Shown here in pieces: positions 8,945 through 59,613 of a stretch of DNA of 64,000 bases. Under the pieces are notes generated by a model. It searched no databases and had not been told where the DNA came from. It saw only the letters and a list, made by a program, of their open reading frames with translations. Location: the NCBI GenBank assembly GCA_000002445.1, contig CH464491.1, positions 3,136,001 to 3,200,000 of the forward strand, given 5' to 3'. This DNA is from Trypanosoma brucei (lineage: Eukaryota). The first letter of the stretch is position 1, and every line of letters begins with the position of its first letter. The position numbers and the translations under genes are program-made.

Positions 8945-9102
8945 ACGGCGAACAAAACACAGTCAATCAGACACCAAGCCATACGAGCATCAGGTAACTC
9001 CTAAGCGAGCCCTTCAACAGGAAAGAAGCAAAGTAACATTTTTCATCACTTGAAGGACTCCCTTCCAGTTATTGCAAGGTTAGTAAGCAGGTGTCGGTTC
9101 CT

Positions 9103-13173: not shown

Positions 13174-13177
13174 AGTT

Positions 13178-13400
13178 GAGTGGAACAAGAATCGGAAAGA
13201 AGGAGATATGGGGTTTGGTAAAGGAGATGATGGTGTAAGGAATGNNNNNNNNNNNNNNNNNNNNNNNNNNNNNNNNNNNNNNNNNNNNNNNNNNNNNNNN
13301 NNNNNNNNNNNNNNNNNNNNNNNNNNNNNNNNNNNNNNNNNNNNGGAAGAAGAGATTGGGGTTTGGTTAAAGGAGATGATGTGTTGTTAAGGGAATGGCA
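13178..13400. repeat. Tandem repeat of an about 50-bp unit (ggaaRgaaggagatWtggggtttggt(t)aaaggagatgatg(g)tgtKtaagg(g)aatg). At least 2 copies spanning the N gap.
   Basis: One unit ends at 13244 and a second starts at 13345, with 100 N between them. Copy 1 and copy 2 have a single unit at the equivalent site (about 2526-2580). Confidence 0.7.
13245..13344. other. Assembly gap (100 N). Also a single ambiguous base at 13628.
   Basis: Run of exactly 100 n characters. Confidence 1.
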
Positions 13401-40771: not shown

Positions 40772-40822
<51 letters not shown>

Positions 40823-43800
40823 TTATTTATTTATATCTATGTTTCAATATTTTCGCATATTTATATGTGACCTTGATCTCTCTGAGTTTATTCTGTGTAT
40901 ACAATTAGCATATGTATATTATATGTTAGTTTGCTGGCTTAACTCGCTTCGTTTATATTTGTAACTTTCCTCTTTTGTTTGTTTGTTTGTTGCGGAAGGG
41001 AATTTGACTGGACGTGTCCGTCTTTTTGTTTTTGTTTGCAACTGTTCTTTTTTGTGTGTTTCTTATTTAATTACTTTTTGACTGTGTATTTGTGTGGATA
41101 TTTATACGCAAATATCTATATCTATATATATGTATTTATATACATATGAACTTATATGAGTATAAATATAAATTTGAATGAGAATGAATAGACACGAAAA
41201 GAGCCATTATGTTGAAGTAAGTAAGCCGAACCCAGATGAAATTATATAGGGTGAGAAGGGTTGGAAATAATAATAATAATAATAATAATATATATATATA
41301 TATATATAATCATGGATGTGAGCTCAGTGTTGTTGTTGTTATAATGATTATTTTCTTTTGCCCTCATGCAAATGCTGACGGACTCGAACACGTGGGGACC
41401 ACCACATCGTCTTACTTTCCCTTCCTCTTTTTTTTTTGTTTTCTCCTTCTTATATGTTTTTTTGTTTTAATTCTAATTGGCTCGTTGCGTTTTGTTTGGT
41501 TGAGCTATTTTCGACACGAACCCGCTATGGTAGTTTTTTTTTGTTACTCTGTTTCTGCCTACTTGGTTACGTTAACTTTTTTCTTTTTTCTTTTTTCTTT
41601 TTTTCCATTTGTTTCTTCGCATGGAGGTGAGTATTCATGAAAAGTGATGGAGAGTAATTTAGAGGAAGCGAAGGGGAAGAAAAGAGCGGAGGGGGAAAAA
41701 AAAAAGGATTGTTTTGGGAGAGAAAGGGGAGAAATAAAAAAAGTTGTTGCTGTTGTTATTGTTATTAAAAAAAAAAACAAAAACAAGAGAGGTTTTAATT
41801 AGAGCGAGGAAAGAGAAAGGTGAAGGAAAGAAGGAAAGGGGGGAGGGAAAAAGTTTGTATTGGCGGTGGGATTTGAGGTGCAACGGATCCGAAATCACGG
41901 AACAATTACATTTAATCTCATTTCTCTGCGGTCATGTTGAGCCGTAAGGAACCCTCGCATACGGGAACCTTCACCATTTTCTTTTTATATTTTTCTCTTT
42001 CTTTTTTTTCTTTTTTCTTTTTTTTTTAAAAAAACATGGAGATGACATTGGATAACAAAACAAATACGCCCATATTTAAATATTTACATATTTATGCAAC
42101 TGTTAATTCATTAAAAGGTGGAGGGGAGGGAATGAACAGAACCAACAATGATGGGGGAAGGGGTTTAACAATGAATAAGTGAAACAGTGGATCAAGTGAA
42201 AATTATTGTATTTATGTTTTATATTAATATAAATACAAATTTAAACGAATTTGAATAAATAACTGAATTTAAGCAATATAATAAATCTATATACGGACAT
42301 GTAGAGTTGCACTTTTTTTTTTTAATTTGAAAGGTTATGAAATTAAAAACAGTTGCGACTGCTTCAGCAAATGAGGAATGTTTCCGTTTCTAAGTGTCAA
42401 TGTCCGTGTGAGTGGCTGAGAGGACGAAAAATATGAATAATATGACAAAAATAGAAGAAGCACAATCGAAGAGACAAACAGAAAAAAAGAAGCATAACGA
42501 AGAATATATAAGCCACGTAAAATATTTAAATGAAATAAAACAAAATGAGGAAGCACTATATTGGACACACAATGAGAAACAGCGGAAGTAATGACAAAAT
42601 TCACTCTTCCCCTCCTTTTATTATTATTATTGTTATTGTTATTATCTTAGTTTCCTCCCTTTTTTTTTTAACATTTGTGACGTGGCGTTTCTTTATTTAC
42701 GTTTTTGGTGGGTTCGTTACCACCGCTCTTCTCGGTGCATGTGTATATGTATATGCTTGCTCACTTTTTTCCCTTGTTTTTTAATATTAATCATATTATT
42801 ATTATTACAATCATATCCCTTGGTTCCATCTACAACCTTTCGTGGGGCAGATATTTATGTCCCCTATATTCCTTTCTCTTTTAAAAAAAAATCTTTATTT
42901 ATTTGATCTGGTTCTTTTTTCCTCTTTATATATATATATATATATTAACGAAACTACTTTTGTTTTTTTAAATTTTTTTACTATTACGGCACAAGCGAGT
43001 GAATCCTCACCCAAAACGGCGGGGAAGGAGCATCAACTTGTGAGGTTCCTCATGAAAAATATAAATATTGCATGCGGATACCAAACTTGCCGATGCTTAC
43101 ACGCATTAAAAAAGAAGGTTTCGTTTTGTATTTTTGAAAAAAAAAACAAAGAAGGAAAAGGAAAGATACATATATATATAAATATGAATGCAAAGAGAAA
43201 ATTAATAGACAAGGAGAGGGGCGTAACTCGAGCTTCCTTCAAGTGTTTTTCCTTTTCATTTTATCAATATTATTTTATTTATCTTTTCTCGGTGTTGTTC
43301 TTCTTTTATCTTTTCTTCTATCCTTTTCACGTGACACTATTTCCTTTGGTTGAAACTAACGAATAATATACGCCTGTGCATAAGCGATGGTGAGTGACTA
43401 AATGAATAAATAAATAAATGCTCTTTTGAATAAATGGAGGGAATATTTAAGACTCAGAAACGTAAGTTACGAGGAGGAAGGAGGAAAAAGGGACGAGAGG
43501 TGTCTTTCCTTCTTTATTTTTGCCTTTTATTGTGTGCACTTTTGCTACTCCTCGTTGCCGCATTTCCGTTCTTCCGTAACGGGGGGGGGGAAAAAAAAAG
43601 GAATTGTGCGTTTGGTAAAGAAATGAAGGTATAGAAGCGGCTTCCGCTTGTCCCCGCATGTCCTCGTGCATGTTTAAAGCCGCGCTCTTCCCTCCATTCG
43701 TGCTGATGAGTATTTGTTCATAAATATGAGAGGAAATATATATATATATATATTTATAGGTATATATTTACTTGACTTCTCTTTTCCTCTTTTTTTAATT

Positions 43801-46044
43801 ATTGTAAACTTTTATATTTATGTACATGCACATTAAGAGCGCACCCTAATGTCGTATTGCGGTGATGATTCACCGTTGTTACCCATCATCATGGCCAAAG
43901 TAATAATTATATATATATATATTATTGCATTCTCATTATGGTGCCCTTTTTCTTCCCTTTCCCTTTCTACTTACCTTCTTTGTTATCATAATTATTAAAA
44001 CTGTACGTACTTTACCTCAATTAAGCAATAATGGTAACCGAAAGTAGAAGAAGAAAAGGAAAAAAAAGGATGCGGAAGGATAATTACGCACAACACTTTA
44101 ATTATTATTATTATTATTACATTATTATTACTATTATTATTGTTTGTTCCTTTGTGTACTTCCTTGCCACTTATACGCGTACCTTTCATTGCTTTGGCAC
44201 TGATCATATGAATTAAATTTAAGGATTTTAATTATGGTGATGATTGTTGTTATTAAAAAAAAACAATAATAACTATTATTTTATATTGTGCCTTTACTCG
44301 TTGCAACCATCATACCCTCGTGGATTGCATTGTTTCGTTGGCGTGGAGGTAACAAACCACATAAACGAGCCAAATGACTGCACATATAGCGGAAGGAAAT
44401 AAAACAAAGGAGAAAGTAAAGCAAATTAAAAAAAAGAGGGAGCGAGAAGGATTTAAAAGAAACATTTTTTTTTCTTAAAGATGAGTCGACTTCTACCATT
44501 CGTGTTTATCGATCCATATTTGTATATGTTTATTTATTTATTTGTATATACGAAAAGAAGATAAGGAATGGGGGAAAAGAGGCATGAAGAAGTGAGAAGA
44601 GGATGAGGAAGAGAAGGAAATAAAAGAAAAGAAAAGAAAAAAAAAGCGATAGAAAACAGAAAGAAAAAGGAAAAAGAAAAAAAAATGAAGAAAAGAGAAC
44701 AAGGTGCTGGTGTGCCGCGTACTTGAAATTCACACTGTTCCCGTTCTTTCACATCGAAGTTGGGAAACCAATAAAACAAGAGGTATAAATCATATCATAA
44801 TTATTACTGTTTGGAGATGACTTTCTTTTCTTTTCTTTTTGTTTTTCTCTTTTTTTTTTTTTTACCCCTCTCCCATTCAGCTTTTCTTTTGTGTACCTTT
44901 TCTTTACAGCACTCTGTGTTTCAACCGACCGGATAATGGAGACCAGCAAAAACAACCACAAAATGCGAGTAAAACCAGAGCAGCAAGAAAAGAAGCGAAA
45001 AAGACAGCGCCCATTTATGGGTTTATTTACTTTAAAATTAAAATATATATATATATATATATTATACTCACATATTTGTGTGGTGACGAAGGTAAGGAAA
45101 GGGGAAATTATTGCAAGTTGTTTATATGAAACTGGCAAACAAAAACTCTTTTTCTATCTTTTTTTTTTAAAAAAAAGAAAAAGAGAAGAGGGGAGAGGAG
45201 AGGAGAGGAGGATTTCAAAAAAAAAAAAGAAGCAAGTGCGTGTGCGCACGGATGGCTGGACGGACTTTAACACATGGTGCAACACGATTTGATTTTCAGT
45301 TTGCTTTTCATTTTCTTCGATCCGACAGATAACTGCTCCGTGGGAATGACTTGCTCTCTTTTTTTTTTTAATTATTATTATAATTATTATGATTTCGTTT
45401 CGTAAATGATTTCCACTTTCCCAGTCCCTGCTGCACTTCATATCCGCGCAACATTTTCTTTGTTTTGTTTTGCTTATTCTTACCCTTCTTGTTATCTTTG
45501 TTTTTTTTAAAATTATTGCTTATTTATATTAGTTTCTATAGGGAATAGTCATATAATTTAGTTGTTTGAGACTGTGAGTCACAAGGCAGCGCCGCTTGAA
45601 CTTTCCAGCATATTGAGATGAGGAACCTGCAGACCCACACATGAAAGGGGTAATATGATTCTTTTTTTAAAAAAAAATATATAAATATATTCTGCTTTTC
45701 ATCCAAGAATAATAATAATGAAAAAGAAAGGTGCAATCCTTTTTGTTTTCAAGGAAAGGTCAGTCAATTTTTCCTCTCTTTCTTTTTCGGTTTCTTCGTG
45801 TGCCTGTTTGTTTTTTATATTGTTGTTTTCACACCAGTTAACAAGGGCTTTGTGCTCCGCAAAGTTAGCATCATAAAGTAAGGCGATAGAATACAAAAGA
45901 AAAAAAAGCTCCATCAAGAAAAGAGCGGGAGGAAAAAAAAAGAAAAATTATACACCGAAGATATATAGAAAGGGGCCATAAGCCTCGCATATAGCAACAA
46001 ACAAGGAGGACAGACAAAAGGAAAAAAAAAGGGAGGACCAGGAT
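36352..46044. repeat. About 9.7-kb ORF-free low-complexity tract. Alternating polypyrimidine and polypurine blocks with (TA)n, (ATT)n, (CCT)n and (CTTTTGT)n microsatellites and homopolymer runs.
   Basis: All ORFs in this interval on the track are translations of simple repeats (poly-F/L/K/S). Strand composition flips every 100-400 bp. Located between two plus-strand genes. Confidence 0.85.
40775..40818. repeat. (AT)22 microsatellite.
   Basis: Direct inspection. Confidence 0.95.
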
Positions 46045-47808
46045 ATGGCGTTTCTCGTACAAGTAGCAGCGGATATATTCAATAATAAAGTGAACTTTGA
46101 GCTTAGCTTCCCGTCCAGACCCAGCATATCGGAACTGACGCGTTCGGCGGAAACTGCTTTCTCAAATGAAATTTCTCTTCGCCGACCGGACAATGTGCCA
46201 TCGCACAAATTTCATTCATCGAAGATCAAAATGTACGATGAGGAGCTCAACAAATGGGTGGATCTAATAAGGGAGGACCAGTTAACGGATTATTGTCAGC
46301 TTTATGTTTTCCAACCTCCAAATGAATGGCACAAGGAAAGCCAAAAGGAAATCCCCCCTGCAATGAAGCCACCGAGTTCCGGCCAACGACACTCCGCAGG
46401 TGGTTCCTTTTCACAGGGCTCACGTGTCACTCCTAATGGAAGCCTTTCCATGCAGGGGGCTCTCGCACCGTACAACGGGTCTCGCTCACCCGTTAGCCAC
46501 CGCAGTGAGTCGCAACAGGCTCGTCACGCTTCGTTCCACGGGAGTACCTCAAATGCGCTCGTGCCGCGTGCCCAGACAGATGTGTCGCAAGAAGAAAAAC
46601 TGCGTGTGCTATTCGCGGAACTCGATGTAAAGGGTAACCGTGTGCTCGACGTTGAGGACTTCCGACACGGTTTCACTGTGTTTAATCTCAACTTCAGCCC
46701 AGCTACGGTGGACGATCTCTTTGAAAAGGGTGACAGCAACCGGGACGGGCGGATTACCTTTTCAGAATTTGAGCGGTTCGGACGGCTCTATCCAATCATG
46801 ACGGATTGCCTCTATTTCCGTTCCAGGGCTTTTTGGGAAGAAGAACAAATCAGGCGCTCTATTCAAAATGAGCGACAGGCAGTGAGACAAGCGGAGCAAG
46901 CGGTGGAGCAGGCCCGACGAGCCCTTGAGGAGGCAGAAAATGAGACAGATGCCGCTAAGGATGCCGTCGCAACTGCGGATGCGGATCTCAAGGATCGAAC
47001 GGACCGTCTGCGGGACCTCACGAGGGACATGGACAACGCAAAGCGCGAGAAGGAGCGGGCCATCCGCGAGAAGAAGGATCGCGAGAAGGAACTCTTCGAG
47101 ATTCGTGAGCGTGAAAAGGAGCTTCGGAAAGACGCACAAGAGGTGGCTCGTGAGGCTGAGAAGCAGGACCGACGGGCGTTTTCTCTCGCTGGGGAAGCGA
47201 GTGCTGCCGATGACAAGGTTCGTGCCTTGGAGAAGGCCCTTGACGAGGCTCGTCGTGCCGCTGAGCGGGCGCACAACGCCGCAGATCAGGCTGCCAGAGA
47301 CGCTGATATCGTGAAACTCCGCATGCAAGATGCTACACGAGATGCCGAGGAGGTGGCACGGGAGGTTCCCCGGGCGGAGGACGCGGTGCGGGCCGCAGAG
47401 CACAACGTATCAGCAGCAGATCAAGGGGCTCGGGAACTGGAAGGAATGGGCCGTGTGCTTTCGCGGGAGATAGAAGAGGCTGGGCAGCGACGGGATCAGA
47501 GCGAAAAGGCAGTTGAGGAGGCGAGAGGTATGATGCATGTGAAAGAGCGTCAGTTGGAGGAAGCAAAACAGCACGTTTCGGAGAGGGAACACGCCGTAAG
47601 GCTTAAGGAAATCGAACTGGCTGATCAGCTGAAGCAGCGTGAACTCGTGTCACAGCACGAGAGGACACTTATAGAGCAGGAGCTTCGGCTACGCGAACAA
47701 AGAGACAGTTTAGAGGAGCGGGAGACGAAATTGATGTCAGAAGCCAGCAGCTTCCTGGGCAATCTCCGTACGCAGTTACACGGTGGGAGGTCCTATCCGC
47801 GAGATTAA
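46045..47808 (+). CDS. EF-hand calcium-binding protein with long Ala/Arg/Glu/Asp-rich coiled coil, 587 aa.
   Basis: Two EF-hand-like loops (DVKGNRVLDVEDF, DSNRDGRITFSEFE) followed by about 300 aa of EAxRxAExA-type charged heptads. Confidence 0.6.
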   Translation: MAFLVQVAADIFNNKVNFELSFPSRPSISELTRSAETAFSNEISLRRPDNVPSHKFHSSKIKMYDEELNKWVDLIREDQLTDYCQLYVFQPPNEWHKESQKEIPPAMKPPSSGQRHSAGGSFSQGSRVTPNGSLSMQGALAPYNGSRSPVSHRSESQQARHASFHGSTSNALVPRAQTDVSQEEKLRVLFAELDVKGNRVLDVEDFRHGFTVFNLNFSPATVDDLFEKGDSNRDGRITFSEFERFGRLYPIMTDCLYFRSRAFWEEEQIRRSIQNERQAVRQAEQAVEQARRALEEAENETDAAKDAVATADADLKDRTDRLRDLTRDMDNAKREKERAIREKKDREKELFEIREREKELRKDAQEVAREAEKQDRRAFSLAGEASAADDKVRALEKALDEARRAAERAHNAADQAARDADIVKLRMQDATRDAEEVAREVPRAEDAVRAAEHNVSAADQGARELEGMGRVLSREIEEAGQRRDQSEKAVEEARGMMHVKERQLEEAKQHVSEREHAVRLKEIELADQLKQRELVSQHERTLIEQELRLREQRDSLEERETKLMSEASSFLGNLRTQLHGGRSYPRD

Positions 47809-48748: not shown

Positions 48749-49378
48749 TTGCATACGGAGAACACGACACAGGCAATGCGGCGTAGTCCTTGTGCTGATT
48801 ACTTCACATCTCTAATGGCAACCGCCGGTTTTGTTCGATGCCGCGGTTTGAGTTCTAGCGGCCAAACAAACACCACACAAACTGTACACGTTCTCCATAG
48901 CCTATACCGTCGGTTGCGGAAGGAAGGTGAGGAACGAAAGATGCTGGAGGATGCCCTCTCCGTTAACCAACTCGAGACGAACATTCGTATCGGATTACGT
49001 CTTTTGCATTGCCACACACAGCTGGTGGATTTGAACAGACAGCTGAAGGAGTTACCCTTTTGGCGGCTAGTGAGGCGAATGTCACTTGCTGTTGCACGCC
49101 GTTATTATGCCTGGCGAATTTTTTCTATCCGGCTTCGATTGCGTAGCACAACGGCGATTAGCAACGCCCTGGTGTACACGCTCTTCCTAGTGGTTTGCTT
49201 TATGCTCTACGAGATCTATTGCGTTTGCCGCATTGGGGTGACGCGAGCGGAGGATCGGTACAAATCATTAGCCGTCCCGATAGTACAGACGTTTGAAGCC
49301 CTCGAGGAGGCGGCACGGCGACGAAAAGACATCTTGTTGAAGGAAATGGAGGGGGATATAGTTCGGCAAAGGAATTAG
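48749..49378 (+). CDS. Hypothetical protein, up to 209 aa. One predicted TM segment (LVYTLFLVVCFMLYEIY).
   Basis: ORF with non-repetitive composition in the plus-strand gene array. The start codon is uncertain (alternative Met at MATAGFV). Confidence 0.35.
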   Translation: MHTENTTQAMRRSPCADYFTSLMATAGFVRCRGLSSSGQTNTTQTVHVLHSLYRRLRKEGEERKMLEDALSVNQLETNIRIGLRLLHCHTQLVDLNRQLKELPFWRLVRRMSLAVARRYYAWRIFSIRLRLRSTTAISNALVYTLFLVVCFMLYEIYCVCRIGVTRAEDRYKSLAVPIVQTFEALEEAARRRKDILLKEMEGDIVRQRN

Positions 49379-50244: not shown

Positions 50245-52011
50245 ATGTCCGTGGCCTCTGAGGCAAATGACGTCGTATCGTTCCTCTCCAAGGTTGGGGA
50301 GCGCTACAAGCAGCACCGCGAGTTACTCCGCCGGAAGTTTTTGGAAGACGAGCGTCGCGATTGCCCCTTCAAACCAACATTGTCCAAATATACTTCACAC
50401 AGGAAACCGAGCAAAGGCTCCGAGTGCGTTGAGGCTGTGGAGAAGCGGTTATATCAACTGCATGTGCGCCAGCAGGAGTTGGCGGAAGAGCGTCAAGCTG
50501 CGCATAACAAGAGGGAGAGTGCCGAGTTGAAGGCAGTGATGCGGCCTCCGCGTCTCACCGCACAGGCGCGTTCTCTTTCGCCACGCGATCCAGCAGAAGT
50601 ATCACGGCAATGGTTGCAGAAGCGTGAAGAGAAGTTGATCCGGTTGCGTGAGGCCATCATAAAAGGAGACCTGGACGCGATGCAGTCTAAACCAACTATC
50701 TCTTCATATGCCGAAGCAAACATCACCGCTGAACGTAGAAACGGGAAAAGTATAGAAGATTATCTATTAGCTGAGCATGAGGCGAGACGAGAGCGAATGC
50801 ATCATCATTATGAAGGGGGCACAACGGCTAGTGGTCGTTCTTCTTCCCCTCTACGGCGTGTCGATTCGCAACCCGTGTTCAGACCTCGCATATCCAATTA
50901 TGCGCGACGACTCTCACTCCCTGGTCGCGTTGTGGATCGTTTACTTTCAAAAAAGAGCAGGAAAGGGGATGCGCTGCGTGACGAAAATTGCACTTTTGCA
51001 CCTCGTGTGTCATCGACCTCGACTAGGTTGCTAAGATATTTCTACAAGAATCCCAATGTGTCAGTGTACGATCGCTTATGCGATGAAAGTTACATGAGAC
51101 CTAATGGTTGCTATGCGAAGAAGGGTTCGTCTCATGTGGAACCTGGGAGCTTTGGTGTTCCGCATATAAACGAGACGTCGCGCGCAATAGTTGAACGTAA
51201 AAGAACTGGCGACGATGCGCCACTGCGGACGTATCAGCTTCGAAGCCCTACTGAACGACTTCACGCCTGCAGGGATCCCACGGCTTCGAGTGGCCGGCAC
51301 AGACGGCACTGTCAACATATGATTAGTGAACAGCTTGAAAAGGAGATATCGCAATGTACGTTTCGACCACGTGTTGACGAGGAATCGAACCAGATGTGGC
51401 GGCGGCGGTTACAACAGTTGAAGGGGGGTGGACACCCAAGAAATGTTTCAGGACTCCGTGAGCTCCTTTGGCGTCGTTCAGAAACACGTATGAAAGAGGA
51501 GTTGCGCAGGCAACGTGAGCTGCAAGAACAGAAAGAGGTGGAGGAGTGTACCTTTCACCCCAAAGTAGGGCGGGCCCCTCGAAGGCGAGTTGAGTGCGCA
51601 CTTTCCGTTCCGGAACGCAATGAGGCATGGCAGCAGCGACGGCAGAAAAAACTCAACTGTACCCGGGAAGAGGTTGAGCGTTCTGAGACATCCGAATGCT
51701 CGTTTCATCCCTCCGTTTCTTCGCTGCATTCTGCAGCTTCGGTGCCAGCCTCTAACGTAGCCGGGTACGATTCACATCTGCGGCGTCACGCGGAGTCGCG
51801 GAGGATAATTCGGGAGATGCAGGAGTGGTGGCGGCCGAAGTCTCACATATCTCGTAACAGCGGGTCAGCTCGTCGGGTGCGTTCGCAACCCCAAAAACGG
51901 GAAAAGGAATGGTGGGACTTGCCGCAGAAATGCGAGCTCAGCAGTTTTACGCGCACGTGCTCTCCCACTTCGTGGGATGATCAACTTAGTTCGTCACAGT
52001 TGGGTTCGTGA
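50245..52011 (+). CDS. Hypothetical basic protein, 588 aa, with five dispersed C-[PTS]-F-x-P-x-[LV] motifs.
   Basis: Motifs CPFKPTL, CTFAPRV, CTFRPRV, CTFHPKV and CSFHPSV spread over the whole protein and separated by R/E-rich helical segments. Confidence 0.55.
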   Translation: MSVASEANDVVSFLSKVGERYKQHRELLRRKFLEDERRDCPFKPTLSKYTSHRKPSKGSECVEAVEKRLYQLHVRQQELAEERQAAHNKRESAELKAVMRPPRLTAQARSLSPRDPAEVSRQWLQKREEKLIRLREAIIKGDLDAMQSKPTISSYAEANITAERRNGKSIEDYLLAEHEARRERMHHHYEGGTTASGRSSSPLRRVDSQPVFRPRISNYARRLSLPGRVVDRLLSKKSRKGDALRDENCTFAPRVSSTSTRLLRYFYKNPNVSVYDRLCDESYMRPNGCYAKKGSSHVEPGSFGVPHINETSRAIVERKRTGDDAPLRTYQLRSPTERLHACRDPTASSGRHRRHCQHMISEQLEKEISQCTFRPRVDEESNQMWRRRLQQLKGGGHPRNVSGLRELLWRRSETRMKEELRRQRELQEQKEVEECTFHPKVGRAPRRRVECALSVPERNEAWQQRRQKKLNCTREEVERSETSECSFHPSVSSLHSAASVPASNVAGYDSHLRRHAESRRIIREMQEWWRPKSHISRNSGSARRVRSQPQKREKEWWDLPQKCELSSFTRTCSPTSWDDQLSSSQLGS

Positions 52012-52760
52012 TAATTACGGGATGCGCGGTCCCTGTGGTCGCGTGTTGACTGGTGTTGCGCGCTTTGTTTAGTTGCGGCAGCAATGCGGTGCGCAACCCC
52101 CCGTTTTTTTTTAGACGACAATGGATGAGGTTGAGGCGTAGCGACGGCGCTCGTGCGGCTCAGACGGTAGTTGTCTATCATAGAGTTCACCCATACATGA
52201 TTATTGTCATTGATATGGTAAAGCATATACATTGAGGATCTTCATGGCAGCAGACAGAATGATGCAAGTGGGAGCACAAATGAGAAAAAAAAACAAAAAA
52301 AATCTACTTGTTCTGTTGGTTGTTGGGATTCCTTTTTTGTTTTGTTGCTTTTACTTTGTTTCACCGTTTGATGCATTGTGGTAGTGTGTTGGATACGCTG
52401 CTTTCCACTTTATTCTTCTTTACGCGCTATCACTCGGTTCCATTACGTGATGTGGGGGCACTTTCACGAAGGTTCCGGCCACTGAACTGCTGCCCCGGCA
52501 GAGGGGGATTATTTCAGCATTACTTGTTCTTCTTCCCCTTTTTGTCCCTTCGTGTAGGTCTTGGCGAGACCTGAAAGGACGTAGTTGAGGAGTTTCTTAC
52601 AAGGAAAGGGAAAGAGAGCAGAAATACACACATACACTACATATATATTTCTCGTTCCATTAAAGTGCATTAAAAACATATATCTGACCTTGCGAAAGGC
52701 GCGACCGCCTGTGTTACCGACCGGTGTTACAACACAAGGGTGGTAATAGTGGGAGGGGCG

Positions 52761-55511
52761 ATGGAAAATATTCGCGTGGTGGTACGTGTGCGGCCGTTTA
52801 TTCCGGGCGAAAACCCCCAGCAGTGCGTTACTGTTCATGACAGACAGATACGCGTCGGCGACGATCGGACGTTCGCGTTCGACAAGGTTTTCGATATGAG
52901 GGCTACATGCGATTTAGTGAACAGTTCAGTTGGAGACCCCTTAATTTCTGCGTTTGTTGATGGGTACACCGTTTCTACAATAGCGTACGGACAAACAGGT
53001 GCCGGGAAAACACACACCATGTCACGTCTATCCAGGTACGTTGTGGAACGTGTACATAAAATACTTACGAATGGCGCCGCCGAGCATTCAGGCTTAGCTT
53101 CACCAGGTGCGAGGTCAAACTCGCTGGCGGATGCTGAAGCTGCTGCAACTCAGCCCGAGTTTCGGTTTTCGGCTGTGGAGGTATACAACGATCAGATTAG
53201 CGACCTTGCCGTTTCTGCATCGTCATCATCAGCCCCTCGCCAGGTTCGAACGTTATCACTGCGGGAGGATAATCGCTGTGGTGTGTTTATTAAGGGTCTC
53301 ACTGAGACGGCCGTTGATTCTGCGGAAGGGTTGCTTACCCTTATAGAGAGATGCATATCCTCTCGTCGCACTGCAATGACGCAAGCAAACGAGACAAGCT
53401 CTCGTTCCCATTGTCTACTGACTGTGGCGCTCGTTTACCGGGGCAAAGTCGGACGGTTTGCCCTCGTTGATCTTGCGGGGAGCGAGCGGATGAAAAAGGC
53501 ACACGGCGCAACGCCGAGTGCTGCAGGTGAAGGACATTCGGGAGCAGCTGCGTCGCGGGTTAGAGAGGGCATCAGTATCAACAGTGGTCTCTTGGCCCTG
53601 GGGAATGTTATATCGGCTTTGTGTGCACGCAAGTCACATGTACCGTACCGAGCGTCGAAGTTAACGCGCCTCCTTCAACCAATGCTTAGCGGCAACTCAA
53701 AAACGACAATGATAGCTTGTGTTTCACCAGTGGCTGCGTCATTCGAGGAAACCCTCAACACGTTAAAGTACGCGAACCGTGTGAAGTCTCTCCGCACGAC
53801 GCCATTGCAAATGGCTGCTGTTTCCTCCATGGAGGACGCGCAGCGTGCCATAGAAATGCTGCATCAGCAACTTCTGGAAGCGAAGCAAGTGGGTTGTGGG
53901 CAGTTTTCCGGCATGCCATCATTTCCAACTGGCGATGTAAATGCAAAGTTGGAGGAGCTGGAGGAGAAACTAAGGGTGGAACAGAAGCTTACGCAGCGCC
54001 TAAAGGACGATCTTTTCAATGCGGAGTACACCGCGATGGTTGAGGTTGAGAAGCGGAAGAGTCTCGAAAAGCGGATTGCACTTCTTGAGTTAGTGGAGAA
54101 GGAACGATGTGTGGGTCGTGCGTCAACGAGCACTGCGGAGGTTAGTGCCGTTGGTAGTACTGTGTCGTGCCCTAGAAGGTCAGCAGAGTCTAGTGACCCT
54201 TCCGACGAGGGCGGGGATATAGAAAACAACAGGAAACTTCTAGAGAGACTAGAAGCAGAGCGGGATGAACTCGAAGCACTTAAGAAGCAAAAGGAGACAG
54301 ACTCTAAGCGGCTTGCAGAACTCGATATGGGAGGACAACATTCCATAGGGTGTGACTTTGACGGTAGCTTCTCGCAGGAGAATCTTTTGAGAGACATTGC
54401 CCTGAAGGAGCGGCATATTCAGGAACTTAAGCAGCGAAACGAAGAGGCCGTGTGGGCACTGGAAGACTCAAAGCGCAACCAGGAAGAGGTTCTTTCCGTG
54501 AAGCGTCGTCTTGAAGAAGACCTAGCGAATGCGGTCACGAAATTGGAATCAACTGAAATGGAGCAACAACGGAAGCAGGCGGAGCGGAATAGGTTGTTTG
54601 CACTGCATGAGGAGCGGCTACGCAAGGCCGAAGAAATGGCTGAAACCTACAGGCGTCGTGTGGAGGAGGCGACATTGCAGCTCAATCAGCGTCAATGTAA
54701 CGAGGAACTGATTCAACAGCTCCAGGCACAGATTCCGGAGATGCGTGAAGAGTTGAATCGCCACGTCGTTGCTGTACGCGAGGGACAGCAGCGCGAGCAG
54801 AAGATGGCTGCCTCATATGTACAAAAGGTCAAGAAAATGAAACGACAGATGCGTGAGACGGAGGCTCAGGTCTCTCGACTTCAGGTGGAGCTACAGAAGA
54901 AGGAACGTGAAATTGCTCGGGTTAAATCCAATATTGCTGATAGGTTCGACCGCTGCCTATCTAAAGCCCACGTCGAGCGGAAGCAACTGTTGCGAAACCT
55001 TCAATGCGATTCTTCCGGCCGATCTTCCAGCGTACAGAGGGAAATTGACTTAGAGCTGAGGGCGCTCGCAACGATTGAAACAGATCTTGATGATCTCATG
55101 TTGGAACGTTGTGAAATGAAAGCGCGGCTCGATGAGGTTTGCGGAAGCCCCAACGTGGTGAATAGTTGCGCGGTGGCAGCGAAAGGGTTTGAGTGTCAAT
55201 CCCGTCGCGCCGGCTCGCCAAACAGTTGTAGTGGTGCGCAGGCTGAGGCTTCTACTGACTACAGCGAGGCGCTGGGTGATGGAAATGCTGTTGTGAAGGA
55301 ACAGGCGACGAATCCACTGGTTTTCCAAACGTTGAGGCGACTGGAGGAGGTGGAGGACAGCATCGACAGCCTTCAAGAGGCACGTAAATACCACTTACAG
55401 CGGGTCCGGCGTCTACAAAATAGCTCGGCTTCGGCGCAGGGTTCTGTTACGTCCAGAGCTTGTGAATTGCTGCAGCGCAGCATTAGTGATTCTTTTAGAC
55501 AAACTTCATGA
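52761..55511 (+). CDS. Kinesin motor protein (N-terminal motor domain, C-terminal coiled-coil stalk), about 916 aa.
   Basis: P-loop GQTGAGKTHTM. Switch I SSRSH. Switch II DLAGSER. Motor start IRVVVRVRPF. Long E/K/R/L coiled coil thereafter. Confidence 0.85.
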   Translation: MENIRVVVRVRPFIPGENPQQCVTVHDRQIRVGDDRTFAFDKVFDMRATCDLVNSSVGDPLISAFVDGYTVSTIAYGQTGAGKTHTMSRLSRYVVERVHKILTNGAAEHSGLASPGARSNSLADAEAAATQPEFRFSAVEVYNDQISDLAVSASSSSAPRQVRTLSLREDNRCGVFIKGLTETAVDSAEGLLTLIERCISSRRTAMTQANETSSRSHCLLTVALVYRGKVGRFALVDLAGSERMKKAHGATPSAAGEGHSGAAASRVREGISINSGLLALGNVISALCARKSHVPYRASKLTRLLQPMLSGNSKTTMIACVSPVAASFEETLNTLKYANRVKSLRTTPLQMAAVSSMEDAQRAIEMLHQQLLEAKQVGCGQFSGMPSFPTGDVNAKLEELEEKLRVEQKLTQRLKDDLFNAEYTAMVEVEKRKSLEKRIALLELVEKERCVGRASTSTAEVSAVGSTVSCPRRSAESSDPSDEGGDIENNRKLLERLEAERDELEALKKQKETDSKRLAELDMGGQHSIGCDFDGSFSQENLLRDIALKERHIQELKQRNEEAVWALEDSKRNQEEVLSVKRRLEEDLANAVTKLESTEMEQQRKQAERNRLFALHEERLRKAEEMAETYRRRVEEATLQLNQRQCNEELIQQLQAQIPEMREELNRHVVAVREGQQREQKMAASYVQKVKKMKRQMRETEAQVSRLQVELQKKEREIARVKSNIADRFDRCLSKAHVERKQLLRNLQCDSSGRSSSVQREIDLELRALATIETDLDDLMLERCEMKARLDEVCGSPNVVNSCAVAAKGFECQSRRAGSPNSCSGAQAEASTDYSEALGDGNAVVKEQATNPLVFQTLRRLEEVEDSIDSLQEARKYHLQRVRRLQNSSASAQGSVTSRACELLQRSISDSFRQTS

Positions 55512-57939
55512 GTAATGAAGGTTTTGTTCAGTTATATATTATTGGCTTGGTTCCAAACTTTCTTTCTCTTTTTATATCCTCTCGTTTTTTGTTTGTTGTC
55601 TTCAAAAGGTGCTTTGCTCCTTCCGTCAGGTCGGAACGGTGGTGTGGAGGACGGTGAATTTTCGGTAACAGGGGTGCGAATTTTTTTCTTTTTTTTGGGA
55701 GGGGACGTTTACATATATGATATGAAAGTTATTATCATCATTTCTTTCATCGAATTTCTTTTCCCTGTTTTAATTATTATTTCCCATTGTCTTTTTCTTT
55801 TTTTTCTTTTTGCCCTTCTCTACGGTTGCTCTCTAGCAACATGTGGGGTTTTTTTTCATTGTCTCTTTTTTTATTCGTGTATTCTTCGTCCTCTTCCTTC
55901 TAACCTTCCCTTTTCACTATTCACCTTCAACCTTGTACATTTCTTCCTCGTGCTTTCTTTTTCCACACCACTGCCATCTGCGGTAACGATATCGTTGCCA
56001 TCGTAAATAACGACGGCAAAAAAGAAGAAAAAAAAGAACTGAAGCGAGGAAGGGGAATGTACATACACATATTCCCCTTTACATTCTGTTGATCAGTACT
56101 TTTCTATATCTTTATTGTTGTTGCTGTTGACCCCCTTTTTGCCGTTCGTGTTTCAACTTTTTCGCATATATGAATCAAAAGAACTTGTATATGTATATAT
56201 ATTTATTTATATATTTGTATATAGATTTACACCTATATTTTCTTGAAGAGAAACCGTCTGGTAATTTACCTCCCCTTATTTGAATAATCACTGTTTCTCT
56301 TGAATAAATTTTCGCTTCATAACCCCTCGTTGGTTGAACTATACTTATTTTTTCCCCCCTTTTAGACGTTCTGTTGTTGTTGTTGTTTTTCTTCACTTTC
56401 TTTTTTTTATGTGGGGTGGGAGAGGAGAGATAAAAAGAGGGTGCAAGGGGGGAATGCACCATTATTATCACTATTATTGTTATCATTGTTCTTTACTATC
56501 CTCATGCATCATCATCATTTGCGATGTGTCATCTCGCAAGCTGCGTGGTTAAGGAATGACAGAGAAAAGAGTGAAGGAAATAATAAAATAAAAAATTAAT
56601 TATACCGACAATAAAGGAAGAAAAGGCTTCATTCCTTTTTTTTCCTTTGTGTGGTTCGCTCTCTCTCTTTCTCTCTTCTCCTCTTTTTGATTTTTCCTTT
56701 TACGTTCTTCGTACGGGCGTGTGATAGAGACGAAAAAGTAAATGGGTGAGAAAAAACAAATAAATAAAACACAAATAACAATAATAATAATAATATTAAT
56801 ACAATACACAGTAATACTAATATTGGTAGTTGCAGAGGGTACACCGAGAGAGAGAGAGAGAAGAAAAAAAAAGAAGAGACACAGACAAACAGGATAAAAT
56901 GAATGAAGTAATTTGTGAAGAGGAGGTAATAGCAACAGCGACTGTAAGAACAACAACAATTATATTTACAGTTATCATACAGTGGAACAGGGCCTTCATT
57001 AGTAGCACGTTCTCTTCTCTGTCGACTCGCTGCTTGTTTGTTCCGTTTCCCTCTCTTTATACCTTTATCATCGTCACTGTTAGCGAGAGTCAAGGGAAAG
57101 GAAAAGGAAAGAAAGAACAAAAAAGAGCATGCGGTTAAGAGGAAACAGAAAGTCATCGGGGCCAAAACTGTTGGAGTGAAAAACGAAGACAATGGAAGAT
57201 ACAAGGCAGAAACGTTGTCATGCATTTGAACTACTACCATTCGCCTTTTTTGTTGGCTCTGGCTGTTTTTTAAGATTTGTTTTTTTTTCATTTTTCATCA
57301 TCTTTTTCAGTATGACATTCCAGCTTAATTGTATTACGCTCGGTAATGCGCATTATGCGGCAAGCTAACAACAATAATAACAAAAGAAAAAAGTGGGGGG
57401 GGGGGGCGGAGCGTGAAGCATATTTGCTCGGGAGTGTCATCGGGCCTCCGACAAACCCAATGTTCCTACCTTTCATTTTTCTCCAGTGATTTGTGAGTCT
57501 CGTTGGAAGTACTTCCATATGAGTGTGCGTGGATGGGAACTCACCTCTTCTCTTTTGTTCCTCATCTTACTTCTTCCTTTCTTCCTTCCTTTTCTCCCAT
57601 TATATGAACCCCTTCCACGGCTAATGCCCTCCGTTGAGGAGAGTGACGGGGCGGTGGGTGAGTTGGGAGCTTTCTTCAGAGTTTAGTACTACTGTACAGT
57701 CGCGCGGTAACATATCCCTTTCTTTCCTCCCTGTTTTAGGCTTATTGTTTGCCTCGCCGTCTTCTTTCTGTTAACCCACCGTCGTGATTGTTTCTATCCC
57801 TTTTTCCTTTTTTCTTCTTCTTTTCTCCCAGGTTTCCTTTCCTTTCCTTTTTCTCACTCGTAGCTCTGGTGGCGAAGCAACGGAGAGGGAGAGGTACTAT
57901 TTGTGTGTGTGTTTTAGAGGAGAGGAGAAAAGAGGGAAG

Positions 57940-59613
57940 ATGTCAGGTTGCGACGGGACGGAGGGCCGCTTTGGTCGAATTTCCTCGTGGGAGCCGAGCA
58001 CGCCACCCGATGTTGTCACCGACTCCGTTGAGGACGCCTTCGAAGAGGTCGCACCTTCGGTGAATGGACCACTCATCGCACGCCTTATTCCGATACGCGA
58101 CGGCTCCACTGCTTCACTGCGGGTACCAATGCCAATACTTGAGATATACAGAGATTCAGGCACTATCACAATGGGCCGCTCAAGGGAACTGCCTGTTGAG
58201 TGCCGCGTAGATGTGGCACGTGTATCAACTCAGCACTGTGAGTTGCGTGTTAATGCTGTCACTCGGCAGGTGACTGTGCGAGACATATCGTTAAATGGAA
58301 CATTCGTAAATGGGAAGCGGTTAGAGAAAGGTGTTGACGTGGAGCTGCAGTCTGGCGACCAAATTTCCTTCGTGAAATCCCTTCCCACTGGTACCACTGC
58401 AACGTCAACTCCGGCACAGACCTCGTCATCTGAGTCTGCAAATGTGAGCAGTGGTGGTGGAAACGGTGCAGAATACGTGTTTCAGAGGGTGTCCAGCACA
58501 CAAAGTGTTTCGCAAATGGTAGAGGAGCTTACGTGCTCCGTGTGCAAACATCTCTACCATCGGCCCTGCAGTGCATTGCCTTGCATGCATGTGTTTTGTG
58601 CTTCGTGTTTGAGCAAGTGGTTAGCGTGCGGTAACGTCACGTGTATGGAGTGCCGTGCGGAGCTGTCAGAGGTTCGCCCAACGCATAAGCTACAGAACTG
58701 TGTAGAGCAACTCTTGAAACTCAACCCGGGGCTCTGTCGTAGCGCCGAGGAACTGGCGGAGTGTGGGTTCAACGACGATATTCCCCCCGAGGGAAGAAAG
58801 TTACTGAAGCGGACACGCAGGGTTCGGGATGATGACGGTGATGACTACTCCGATACGGGGAGTGATCTCGATGATGATGATGATGATTTCGGTAGTGAAT
58901 TCAATACAAGCAGTGGGGGTGATGGCGTTAATGCAACTCATGTTCCTCAACTGTACCAAGGCCAAACGCATGGTCATGCGCCAGCAACTGGGTCTTGCAA
59001 GCACTGTGAAGCTCCTTCTGCGGTGGACGGTTTCCGTTGCCCTGCGAGGGGGATGCACCAGTCTTGTGCACGGTGTCGTCGGCTATTCCCCATGCGTCCA
59101 CTCTGCACTCGGCCGCAACGGTGCCATCTCTGCAGCACCCCGTATTGTAATTTGTACTACAAGGATGAGGGTGGTTGTCCAGTTGGCGCTGACGGGGGCC
59201 TTACCATCGTTTCGCAGTACCGTGCGCCGCAAGCCCTTCCACCAAACCTGTTTGGTGGCAACAAGGTGGAACAAAACATTGTTTCAAGTTATTTGATGGT
59301 CAAACACGTGGTGGTTGAGGATGTTTGGGGAGAATGCCTCCAGAAGTTGAGTGGTCGTGAATGGGTGCCTGATATTACTTGTGTAAATGGGCCTGTGACA
59401 GCAGATTCTGCTCTGTGTGAAGGCTGCATGGACATCCTCTTTGCCGCATTGTTGTTTCATTACCGTCGCTGCATACCTCGTGCTGAGTTACCATATTCTG
59501 TGACGGACAGACCGAACTGTTGGTACGGCCTGAACTGCCGCACACAGTTTCACAACATGCAGCACGCAAACAAATATAACCACGCGTGCTACCAAGAAAA
59601 GCGGAAAGAGTAG
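57940..59613 (+). CDS. FHA-RING E3 ubiquitin-ligase-like protein (CHFR-like architecture) with Cys-rich C-terminal region and acidic D-rich linker.
   Basis: FHA-like core (ITMGRSRELP...VRDISLNGTFVNGKRL). C3HC4-type RING (CSVCKHLYHRPCSALPCMHVFCASCLSKWL...CMEC). DDDDDD acidic tract. C-terminal cluster with at least 12 Cys/His (PBZ/zinc-finger-like). Start taken at MSGCDG; ORF track 57784-59613. Confidence 0.7.
   Translation: MSGCDGTEGRFGRISSWEPSTPPDVVTDSVEDAFEEVAPSVNGPLIARLIPIRDGSTASLRVPMPILEIYRDSGTITMGRSRELPVECRVDVARVSTQHCELRVNAVTRQVTVRDISLNGTFVNGKRLEKGVDVELQSGDQISFVKSLPTGTTATSTPAQTSSSESANVSSGGGNGAEYVFQRVSSTQSVSQMVEELTCSVCKHLYHRPCSALPCMHVFCASCLSKWLACGNVTCMECRAELSEVRPTHKLQNCVEQLLKLNPGLCRSAEELAECGFNDDIPPEGRKLLKRTRRVRDDDGDDYSDTGSDLDDDDDDFGSEFNTSSGGDGVNATHVPQLYQGQTHGHAPATGSCKHCEAPSAVDGFRCPARGMHQSCARCRRLFPMRPLCTRPQRCHLCSTPYCNLYYKDEGGCPVGADGGLTIVSQYRAPQALPPNLFGGNKVEQNIVSSYLMVKHVVVEDVWGECLQKLSGREWVPDITCVNGPVTADSALCEGCMDILFAALLFHYRRCIPRAELPYSVTDRPNCWYGLNCRTQFHNMQHANKYNHACYQEKRKE

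What the first reader, a model, noticed from the sequence alone, without database searches (positions are those of the whole stretch)
50245..52011. Basic protein with five dispersed C-x-F-x-P-x-V/L mini-motifs
The motifs CPFKPTL (about aa 40), CTFAPRV, CTFRPRV, CTFHPKV and CSFHPSV recur every about 60-130 residues in an otherwise R/E-rich, probably helical protein. Such short Cys-Phe-Pro modules look like a repeated binding module, for example microtubule- or axoneme-associated motif repeats. I cannot assign this to a named family from memory.
Basis: seen in the sequence. Interest (0 to 1): 0.5.

Follow-up and report, generated by a model that had tools for sequence, protein, structure and literature searches.

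The report
Conserved nine-module filament-binding-type repeat protein
The flagged trypanosome gene encodes a real, strongly conserved basic protein built from nine roughly 55-residue "helix plus Cys-Thr-Phe-x-Pro hook" modules; it belongs to a large, unnamed family found across eukaryotes, and its only studied relative wraps around tubulin filaments in Toxoplasma.

Summary
Window 50245..52011 (+) is a 588-aa ORF, pI 10, identical to T. brucei TREU927 XP_829279.1 (Tb11.01.3980 by position, probably Tb927.11.12170). It has five exact C-x-F-x-P motifs; 0 of 100,000 shuffles gave three or more.

The motif is the core of a longer module: charged helix, (C)TFxPx(I/V)xxxS, linker, V-x-E-R-L-Y helix. 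A module model built only from non-euglenozoan proteins finds nine modules in the protein (mean spacing 55.6 aa), four of them without the Cys.

F and P are invariant in orthologues. An exhaustive profile search gives 2,296 related cluster representatives, including green algae, an oomycete, diplonemids and euglenids. Module spacing in these peaks at 50-56 aa. Profile-profile alignment to the wider family is collinear over 484 columns (E=7e-57).

No member hits Pfam. The only solved-structure relative is Toxoplasma CIP3 (PDB 9y9z, E=1.3e-7 over three modules), an extended protein that wraps conoid-fibre tubulin protofilaments. AlphaFold gives confident helices that end exactly at each motif, with no globular fold.

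Best reading (about 0.5): an extended microtubule-lattice-binding protein with one hook per tubulin dimer. Localisation data could not be retrieved, so function is inferred.

The parts
50245..52011 (+). Complete ORF, 588 aa, 68.6 kDa, pI 10.0. Identical to T. brucei TREU927 XP_829279.1 / EAN80167.1 / UniProt Q382W4. By position it is Tb11.01.3980, probably Tb927.11.12170.
   Evidence: The position lies between BILBO1 (Tb11.01.3960 = Tb927.11.12150) and the kinesin Tb11.01.3990. A polypyrimidine tract plus AG lies just upstream of the ATG.
50272..50361 (+). Conserved N-terminal helix (aa 10-39, VVSFL..G.RYK.H.ELLRR), which runs directly into module 1.
   Evidence: Nearly invariant columns V10, V11, F13, L14, G18, Y21, E26-R29. 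AlphaFold helix 10-39 has block pLDDT 87-93. It aligns with the N-terminal helix of the wider family.
50335..50517 (+). Module 1 (aa 31-91). The hook CPFKPTL is aa 40-46 (nt 50362-50382), followed by VEKRLYQLH and a helix.
   Evidence: Module model built from non-euglenozoan units only: 20.0 bits..
50548..50655 (+). Module 2 (aa 102-137), degenerate. The hook is reduced to PPRLTAQARS, with no Cys or Phe.
   Evidence: Weak hit on its own, 2.6 bits. However, it is collinear with a family FkPxI module in the profile-profile alignment, and a predicted helix ends just before it.
50689..50802 (+). Module 3 (aa 149-186), degenerate. The hook is KPTISSYAE.
   Evidence: 3.2 bits. Collinear with a family tf.P.In module. 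Helix 116-146 ends just before it.
50878..50979 (+). Module 4 (aa 212-245), Cys-less. FRPRISNYARRL ... VVDRLL.
   Evidence: 9.2 bits. F212, P214, I216, R232 and L233 are invariant.
50980..51087 (+). Module 5 (aa 246-281). The hook CTFAPRV is aa 249-255 (nt 50989-51009), followed by VYDRL.
   Evidence: 22.6 bits. C249, T250 and F251 are nearly invariant and P253 is invariant.
51160..51222 (+). Module 6 (aa 306-326), Cys- and Phe-less in Trypanosoma. PHINETSRAIVERKR.
   Evidence: 7.9 bits. P306, I308, S312, I315 and R320 are invariant. The more distant kinetoplastid orthologues keep TFTPRIS / SFKPRIS here.
51328..51537 (+). Module 7 (aa 362-431). The hook CTFRPRV is aa 371-377 (nt 51355-51375), followed by the long charged helix 401-434.
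   Evidence: 18.0 bits. T372, F373, P375 and S381 are invariant. Block pLDDT of the helix is 85-92.
51523..51690 (+). Module 8 (aa 427-482). The hook CTFHPKV is aa 435-441 (nt 51547-51567). This is the best-conserved module.
   Evidence: 32.8 bits. C435, F437 and P439 are invariant even across 33 euglenozoan sequences.
51676..51801 (+). Module 9 (aa 478-519). The hook CSFHPSV is aa 485-491 (nt 51697-51717).
   Evidence: 10.0 bits. C485, F487 and P489 are invariant in 12 kinetoplastid sequences; F487 and P489 stay invariant across 33 sequences, where C485 is nearly invariant.
51757..51804 (+). C-terminal family element VAGYDSHLRRHAESRR (aa 505-520), corresponding to the family consensus G[FY][ED].[HF]..R...AR.
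   Evidence: G507 and H511 are invariant; R514 and R519 are nearly invariant. The same element follows the last module in distant family members, and the family profile aligns through this position in CIP3.

Best explanation
The gene encodes the trypanosome representative of an ancient, pan-eukaryotic, so far unnamed family of extended, basic, non-globular proteins.

Architecture. The protein is a string of nine modules of about 55 residues. Each module is a long, highly charged alpha-helix that stops exactly at a short non-helical hook, (C)-T-F-x-P-x-(I/V)-x-x-x-S. This is followed by a short linker and a V-x-E-R-L-Y segment that starts the next helix.

Proposed mechanism (inferred, not shown). 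The protein lies along or around a microtubule lattice. The invariant Phe and Pro of each hook dock into a site that recurs once per tubulin dimer. The charged helices act as spacers: 50-56 residues of mostly helical chain is about 8 nm, the tubulin-dimer repeat. This would be analogous to nebulin's 35-residue module per 5.5-nm actin subunit (the nebulin figure is from my own knowledge). Nine modules would span about 70 nm and would stabilise or cross-link protofilaments. The Toxoplasma relative CIP3 does this on conoid fibres.

The Cys behaves as a small hydrophobic packing residue, not as a metal ligand or catalytic residue.
For: Shown:
- Five exact motifs, far beyond chance, plus four degenerate copies detected by a module model that contains no euglenozoan sequence.
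- F and P are invariant in orthologues.
- 2,296 related cluster representatives at E<=1e-3, 469 at E<=1e-10. They include Angomonas, Diplonema, Flectonema, Entosiphon, Bryopsis, Chlamydomonas sp. and Lagenidium.
- Spacing between successive hooks in 166 family proteins peaks sharply at 50-56 aa, with a second mode at about twice that.
- Module consensus: C 63% (otherwise L/Y), T 76%, F 95%, P 100%, I/V/L 79%, then ..S.. and E-R-L.
- Full-length collinear profile-profile match of the kinetoplastid orthologues to 71 diverse family members: probability 100%, E=7e-57, 484 columns.
- AlphaFold on 33 sequences gives pTM 0.24, so no globular fold. Long helices have block pLDDT 85-93 and end at the residue before each hook, including the degenerate ones.
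- The family is basic (median pI 9.4; this protein 10.0).
- The only hit in the whole PDB is Toxoplasma CIP3 (9y9z chain 63). The hook profile gives E=7e-6. The broad family profile gives E=1.3e-7 as one stretch that covers three consecutive modules and continues past the last hook through the profile positions of the G-element (CIP3 residues 478-658). Its two canonical hooks are 51 aa apart.
- The CIP3 cryo-EM paper describes an extended protein acting as molecular 'glue' that wraps protofilaments 2-5, bridges the seam and passes through the tubulin wall. Its loss reduces plaque number and size, and it is synthetically lethal with CF1 (PMC12819142).
Against: - There is no direct evidence on the location or binding partner of the trypanosome protein. 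TrypTag tables held here are truncated and lack the gene, and no paper text names it.
- The link to CIP3 is transitive. The euglenozoan-only profile does not hit CIP3, and a longer single-module profile scores it only at E=2.5.
- I could not check whether CIP3 residues 478-658 are the part that touches tubulin.
- Trypanosomes have no conoid.
- The 8-nm argument is arithmetic on a predicted secondary structure, not a measurement.
- Basic, Arg/Ser/Glu-rich helical proteins are also typical of nucleolar and RNA-binding proteins.
- No match to any curated microtubule-binding family: TPX2, MAP6/SAXO or tau repeats.
Confidence: 0.5

Rival explanations
1. The hooks are short linear docking motifs for a soluble or non-tubulin partner, for example a scaffold such as SAS6L-type arrays, a kinase/phosphatase or a motor. 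On this view the protein is a multivalent adaptor rather than a lattice binder.
For: The conserved core is only about 7-11 residues, lies in a non-helical segment and is flanked by charged helices, which is typical of linear motifs. In the conoid fibre, CIP3 also contacts SAS6L, PRP, CF1 and luminal proteins.
Against: A tight 50-56-aa period conserved from green algae to kinetoplastids, together with a collinear nine-module architecture, suggests a periodic polymeric partner. None of 71 plus 9 members scanned carries a recognisable accessory domain, apart from one papain domain (P0096) that I read as a likely gene-model fusion.
Confidence: 0.2
2. It is a nuclear or nucleolar basic protein that binds RNA, ribosomes or chromatin. 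On this view the repeats are structural spacers and the resemblance to CIP3 is incidental.
For: pI 10.0, with R 14%, S 11% and E 10%. No cytoskeletal domain is present.
Against: The only characterised relative is cytoskeletal. There is no RNA-binding domain or motif. The family-wide conservation is concentrated in hydrophobic F/P/I/L positions rather than in basic patches.
Confidence: 0.12
3. The modules fold back on each other into an intramolecular helical-repeat (solenoid-type) domain. The F-x-P hooks would then be turn or packing elements of that fold, not binding sites.
For: The pattern is regular helix-turn-helix-like, with conserved hydrophobic residues at the helix ends.
Against: AlphaFold with 33 sequences gives pTM 0.24 and no packed core. 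Foldseek finds no PDB match. The helices are 32-53% charged and only 17-42% hydrophobic. CIP3 is described as an extended protein.
Confidence: 0.08
4. The repeats are Sfi1/POC5-like centrin- or calmodulin-binding repeats. Candidate sites are the Trp-basic segments such as QMWRRR, LLWRR and EAWQQRR.
For: Several W-x-x-R/K segments occur after the hooks. Trypanosome cytoskeletal structures are centrin-rich (my own knowledge).
Against: Trp at that module position is only 17% in the family. The Sfi1 consensus [FWL]xxW[RKH] (from my own knowledge) is not met in any of the five segments read by eye. The period of about 55 aa differs from Sfi1's period of about 33 aa.
Confidence: 0.04

Closest known systems
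Toxoplasma gondii CIP3 (TGME49_225020; PDB 9y9z chain 63), a conoid-fibre protein
   Same: CIP3 contains a block (residues 478-658) that aligns with three consecutive modules of the family profile and through the following G-element positions at E=1.3e-7. Its canonical hooks are CTFHPAVNPY and ECTFQPNIHK, 51 aa apart, plus the Cys-less FKPYILEYSRKL, which resembles the trypanosome FRPRISNYARRL. It is an extended, non-globular protein that binds the tubulin lattice.
   Different: CIP3 is 1,010 aa and only part of it matches. The euglenozoan-only profile does not detect it. In the orthologue table of the cryo-EM paper it is marked present only in Hammondia, Eimeria and Neospora among the species compared. 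It sits in the conoid, a structure trypanosomes lack. Which CIP3 residues contact tubulin was not available to me.
TPX2 / FAM161-type microtubule-binding proteins (Pfam TPX2 PF06886, TPX2_importin PF12214)
   Same: Both are basic, extended and built from short Phe/Pro motifs separated by charged helices. Many family members, including the more distant kinetoplastid orthologues P0010-12, end with a T-[VI]-P-x-P-F-x-L element. This resembles the TVPKPFNLS element of human TPX2, which I recall from memory and treat as a lead only.
   Different: No Pfam match, even at E<=10 for the trypanosome protein and at E<=1 or E<=0.001 for 88 other members. The hook spacing is F-x-P here, against F-K-A-x-P in TPX2 (the TPX2 spacing is from memory). 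The Trypanosoma proteins have replaced the terminal PF.L element by EWWRPK.
Repeat-type lattice binders: tau/MAP2/MAP4 repeats, MAP6/SAXO Mn modules, Toxoplasma SPM1, and nebulin on actin
   Same: The concept is shared: tandem short modules, one per subunit of a polymer, in an intrinsically extended basic protein.
   Different: There is no sequence relationship. The module length here, about 52-56 aa and mostly helical, differs from tau (about 31 aa, extended) and nebulin (35 aa). These comparison figures are from my own knowledge.

Membership tests
Unnamed pan-eukaryotic 'CTFxPxI-module' family (defined here) | Multiple modules with an invariant F-x-P core followed by [IVL]-x-x-x-S | tested here: met
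   Nine modules detected by a model built without euglenozoan sequences, full-sequence score 91.9 bits. There are five exact C.F.P copies.
Unnamed pan-eukaryotic 'CTFxPxI-module' family (defined here) | Module period of about 50-56 residues | tested here: met
   The family mode is 50-56 aa. In this protein the Pro anchors are at aa 44, 102, 150, 214, 253, 306, 375, 439 and 489, a mean spacing of 55.6 aa.
Unnamed pan-eukaryotic 'CTFxPxI-module' family (defined here) | Collinear full-length architecture: N-terminal helix, modules, then the G[FY]E.H..R...AR element | tested here: met
   hhalign of A1 against A6: probability 100%, E=7e-57, 484 columns, query 7-547. G507, H511, R514 and R519 are conserved.
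Unnamed pan-eukaryotic 'CTFxPxI-module' family (defined here) | Terminal T-[VI]-P-x-P-F-x-L element after the last module (present in a subset) | tested here: not met
   Trypanosoma has EWWRPK at that place. The element is present in P0010-12 and in 50 of 166 members.
TPX2 (Pfam PF06886 / PF12214) | Match to the Pfam TPX2 or TPX2_importin models | tested here: not met
   0 Pfam families at E<=10. None was found in 88 other family members.
MAP6/SAXO (Pfam STOP PF05217) and tau/MAP repeat (PF00418) | Match to the family model | tested here: not met
   0 Pfam families at E<=10.
CIP3 orthologue | Reciprocal, full-length sequence similarity to TGME49_225020 | tested here: inconclusive
   The family profile A6 hits CIP3 residues 478-658 at E=1.3e-7 and the hook profile at E=7e-6. 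The protein itself and the euglenozoan profile A4 give no hit.
CIP3 orthologue | Association with tubulin protofilaments | not testable with these tools
   This needs localisation, co-sedimentation or cryo-EM. TrypTag rows for this gene are not in the held files.
Axonemal microtubule inner proteins with solved structures | Sequence identity or similarity to a modelled chain | tested here: not met
   phmmer of the protein against all PDB chains gives only a chance hit to RtcB at E=0.43. Profile A4 gives no hit. That trypanosome doublet models are in this PDB copy is my assumption.
Sfi1/POC5 centrin-binding repeats | [FWL]-x-x-W-[RKH] repeats every 23-36 residues (consensus from my own knowledge) | tested here: not met
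   Read directly from the sequence: none of the five Trp segments fits the consensus. Trp is only 17% at that module position.

The most novel reading that the evidence does not exclude
The (C)TFxPxI module is a previously unrecognised, pan-eukaryotic microtubule 'ruler' repeat: one module of about 52-56 residues per 8-nm tubulin dimer, a nebulin-like principle applied to microtubules. It would unite the coccidian conoid protein CIP3 with an unannotated, nine-module orthologous family present from green algae to kinetoplastids. The trypanosome protein would then be a new structural microtubule-associated protein of the subpellicular array, quartet, spindle or basal-body microtubules.
Probability: 0.3. 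Interest if true: 0.7.

Novelty: new variant of a known kind. Interest (0 to 1): 0.5.

Why it matters
About half of trypanosome genes have no assigned function, and the parasite's shape, division and motility depend on microtubule arrays whose associated proteins are only partly catalogued.

This result turns a 'hypothetical protein, conserved' into a member of a defined family:
- at least 2,296 cluster representatives;
- no Pfam model;
- a sharply defined module;
- a fixed nine-module architecture;
- one structurally characterised relative on tubulin.

If the one-module-per-tubulin-dimer reading is right, it adds a new class of lattice-measuring or lattice-stapling protein shared by very distant eukaryotes. 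It also shows that the Toxoplasma conoid protein CIP3, marked present only in a few coccidians in the orthologue table of the cryo-EM paper, was built from an ancient module. The hypothesis is directly testable by tagging, by co-sedimentation and by inspecting an existing PDB entry.

Tried and rejected
- Pfam on the protein at E<=10 gave nothing. Pfam on 88 other members gave only a papain domain in one Lagenidium protein, P0096, which I read as a likely gene-model fusion.
- PDB sequence searches with the protein and with the euglenozoan profile A4 gave nothing meaningful. A 57-position single-module profile gave only chance-level hits, with CIP3 at E=2.5.
- Foldseek of the AlphaFold model against the PDB gave 0 matches, as expected for pTM 0.24.
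- A full-text search for the motif strings gave no relevant paper.
- Searches for Tb927.11.12160-12200 gave no paper. Searches for Tb11.01.3970-4000 gave only a kinesin list naming Tb11.01.3990.
- TrypTag supplements (journal and bioRxiv versions) are truncated in the held copy and lack the gene.
- Exact-sequence contig look-up returned 'not on record'.
- I looked for the missing C-terminal motif (KPSPVDFIINHH) downstream in other frames and found no significant trace.
- A zinc or metal-site reading of the Cys is rejected. There is one Cys per module, about 50 aa apart, and it is replaced by L or Y in 16% of modules.
- I compared the hook with SxIP (EB1), RVxF (PP1) and FxFP (ERK) motif consensuses from memory and rejected all three. 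The spacing of the T-F-x-P core does not fit any of them.
Full report
**1. The observation**

Window 50245..52011 (+) is a single 588-aa ORF. It is identical to the T. brucei TREU927 protein XP_829279.1 / EAN80167.1 / Q382W4, annotated 'hypothetical protein, conserved'. The T. b. gambiense and T. equiperdum proteins fall in the same cluster at 90% identity and are also 588 aa.

In 100,000 shuffles of the protein, C.F.P never occurred three or more times. The protein is basic (pI 10.0, 68.6 kDa) and rich in R, S and E. A polypyrimidine tract and an AG lie just upstream of the ATG, as expected for a trans-spliced trypanosome gene.

**2. Which gene it is**

- The ORF at 46045..47808 has a BILBO1 N-terminal domain and EF-hands and is 587 aa, so it is BILBO1. 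Papers holding these identifiers together with BILBO1 indicate Tb11.01.3960 = Tb927.11.12150.
- The ORF at 52740..55511 is a kinesin, and Tb11.01.3990 is listed as a kinesin.
- One small ORF, 48749..49378, lies between BILBO1 and the finding.
- By position the finding is therefore Tb11.01.3980, probably Tb927.11.12170. This is an inference and was not confirmed.

No paper text mentions these identifiers. The TrypTag tables held here are truncated and do not contain the gene.

**3. The motif is the core of a longer module, and there are nine of them**

Distant hits from the first searches (P0015-P0020) carry 5-12 copies of E-C-T-F-x-P-x-I-N-x-x-S, often followed about 15 residues later by V-x-E-R-L-Y.

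Across 166 family proteins, the distance between successive hooks peaks sharply at 50-56 residues. A second mode lies at about 100-115, which corresponds to one degenerate copy being skipped.

The module consensus built from 320 units is ...EELEE-C-T-F-K-P-K-I-N-r-r-S-r-r-L-a...P-V-h-E-R-L-Y...K-R-E-E-K-L-E-R-L-R..E. Position frequencies:

| Position | Frequency |
|---|---|
| C | 63% (otherwise L 9%, Y 7%) |
| T | 76% |
| F | 95% |
| P | 100% |
| I/V/L | 79% |

A module model built only from non-euglenozoan units finds nine modules in the T. brucei protein, at aa 31-91, 102-137, 149-186, 212-245, 246-281, 306-326, 362-431, 427-482 and 478-519. The Pro anchors are at aa 44, 102, 150, 214, 253, 306, 375, 439 and 489, a mean spacing of 55.6 aa.

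Four modules (2, 3, 4 and 6) have lost the Cys, and some have also lost the Phe. Modules 2 and 3 are weak on their own (2.6 and 3.2 bits). They are supported by collinearity with the family profile and by a predicted helix ending just before each of them.

**4. Conservation**

In 12 kinetoplastid sequences the invariant columns are concentrated in the hooks: F212/P214/I216, P253, P306/I308/S312, T372/F373/P375/S381, C435/F437/P439 and C485/F487/P489. Across 33 euglenozoan sequences, P253, S312, C435, F437, P439, F487 and P489 remain invariant.

**5. Extent of the family**

The exhaustive profile search returned 2,296 cluster representatives at E<=1e-3, 469 at E<=1e-10 and 20 at E<=1e-30. Many of them show 2-7 matched stretches.

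Members that carry organism names come from:
- Angomonas, Diplonema, Flectonema and Entosiphon (Euglenozoa);
- Bryopsis and a Chlamydomonas species (green algae);
- Lagenidium (an oomycete).

All are 'hypothetical'.

A profile-profile comparison of the kinetoplastid orthologues with 71 diverse members is collinear over 484 columns (probability 100%, E=7e-57). It runs from the N-terminal helix (VVSFL..G.RYK.H.ELLRR), through the modules in the same order, to a terminal G[FY]E.H..R...AR element. This is a conserved architecture, not just a shared short motif.

No member hits any Pfam model. The trypanosome protein gives nothing at E<=10, and 88 other members give nothing relevant.

**6. Predicted structure**

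AlphaFold2 with 33 sequences gives mean pLDDT 66.8 and pTM 0.24, so there is no globular fold. The long helices are confident (block pLDDT 85-93).

Each long helix ends at the residue just before a hook: RRD|CPFKPTL, KAV|MRPPRLTAQ, DAM|QSKPTISSY, ISQ|CTFRPRV, VEE|CTFHPKV and TSE|CSFHPSV. The helices are 32-53% charged. Foldseek against the PDB finds nothing.

**7. The only experimentally characterised relative**

A 24-column hook profile searched against all PDB chains hits a single protein: Toxoplasma CIP3 (TGME49_225020, 9y9z chain 63), at E=7e-6. The hooks are CTFHPAVNPYPKYL at residue 570 and ECTFQPNIHK at 621, 51 aa apart. Weaker copies lie at 484 (FKPYILEYSRKL) and 236.

The 71-member family profile again hits only CIP3, at E=1.3e-7. 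The match is one continuous stretch that covers three consecutive modules and continues past the last hook through the profile positions of the G-element (CIP3 residues 478-658). These correspond to modules 7-9 of the trypanosome protein.

The link has weaker sides:
- a 57-position single-module profile scores CIP3 only at E=2.5;
- the euglenozoan-only profile does not reach it.

The link is therefore transitive and partial.

According to the cryo-EM paper, CIP3 is an extended protein that acts as a molecular 'glue'. It wraps around protofilaments 2-5 of the tubulin-based conoid fibre, bridges the seam and penetrates the tubulin wall. Its loss reduces plaque number and size, and it is synthetically lethal with CF1 (PMC12819142; review PMC12905489). 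In that paper's orthologue table CIP3 is marked present only in Hammondia, Eimeria and Neospora among the species compared. The wider family does not seem to have been noticed.

**8. Mechanism**

Shown:
- a non-globular, basic, nine-module protein;
- invariant F-x-P hooks at helix ends;
- a period of 50-56 residues conserved across eukaryotic supergroups;
- homology of the best-conserved three-module block to part of a tubulin-lattice-bound protein.

Inferred:
- The partner is the microtubule lattice.
- Each hook docks once per tubulin dimer. About 52-56 mostly helical residues at 1.5 Å each come to about 8 nm, the tubulin-dimer repeat. This parallels nebulin's 35 residues per 5.5-nm actin subunit (from my own knowledge).
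- The Cys acts as a hydrophobic packing residue, because L and Y substitute for it.

I put this reading at about 0.5. The rivals are:

| Rival | Confidence |
|---|---|
| Multivalent adaptor that uses the hooks as linear motifs for a non-tubulin partner | 0.2 |
| Nuclear or nucleolar basic protein | 0.12 |
| Intramolecular helical-repeat fold | 0.08 |
| Sfi1-like centrin binding | 0.04 |

**9. Comparison with known families**

The protein works like the repeat-type lattice binders: tau/MAP repeats, MAP6/SAXO, TPX2, SPM1, and nebulin on actin. It is not a member of any of them by the tests available.

Many family members end in a T-[VI]-P-x-P-F-x-L element. This includes the more distant kinetoplastid orthologues. 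The element resembles one in TPX2, but that comparison rests on my memory and is only a lead. Trypanosoma has EWWRPK in its place.

**10. Verdict**

The finding is real. It is a new variant of a known kind: an unnamed, widespread repeat family that is probably lattice-binding. Its function remains to be shown experimentally. The decisive checks, TrypTag localisation and inspection of 9Y9Z, are cheap.

Noticed in passing
window 1-15000: There are large perfect inverted repeats: arms 7750-9670 / 11302-13222 (1,921 nt, 100% complementary) and 1005-1984 / 13936-14915. There is also a 5,202-nt direct duplication (1780.. / 6982..). Each unit carries pairs of 121-aa ORFs with no Pfam hit. The region lies where the GC skew changes sign, which suggests a strand-switch region.
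   Followed up: partly
window ~36400-46000: About 10 kb with no long ORF, GC 0.31-0.33. It is made of (TA)n runs and polypurine/polypyrimidine tracts, with no tandem satellite, no tRNA and no Rfam hit. It lies directly upstream of BILBO1 and seems unusually long for a T. brucei intergenic region, to my knowledge.
   Followed up: partly
window 51805-52011 (C-terminus of the finding) and downstream to 52740: The T. brucei-group (588 aa) and T. congolense (556 aa, marked partial) proteins lack the last ~80 residues found in the T. cruzi, rangeli, conorhini, theileri and grayi proteins and in distant kinetoplastid orthologues. The missing part includes a conserved terminal motif, KPSPV[DE]FI[IM]NHH[RH]AI. 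No significant trace of it is found downstream in any frame.
   Followed up: partly
window 46045-47808: This ORF is BILBO1, the flagellar-pocket-collar protein (BILBO1_N domain plus EF-hand pair, 587 aa). It gives the positional anchor for the gene identifier.
   Followed up: yes
window 52740-55511: A kinesin (923 aa, N-terminal motor domain followed by a long charged tail) lies immediately downstream of the finding. It is Tb11.01.3990 by position. Adjacency says little about shared function in polycistronic trypanosome units (my own knowledge).
   Followed up: partly
window 57784-59613 and 61537-62412: The first ORF is a CHFR-like protein with FHA, RING, zf-CRD and PBZ domains. The second is a CFAP96-like ciliary protein.
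   Followed up: no
P0096 (Lagenidium giganteum, 1,752 aa): This family member is fused to two papain-family peptidase C1 domains. I read it as a likely gene-model fusion rather than a real architecture.
   Followed up: no
window 48749-49378: A 209-aa ORF with no Pfam hit lies between BILBO1 and the finding. It is presumably Tb11.01.3970. If it is not an annotated gene, the inferred identifier of the finding shifts.
   Followed up: no
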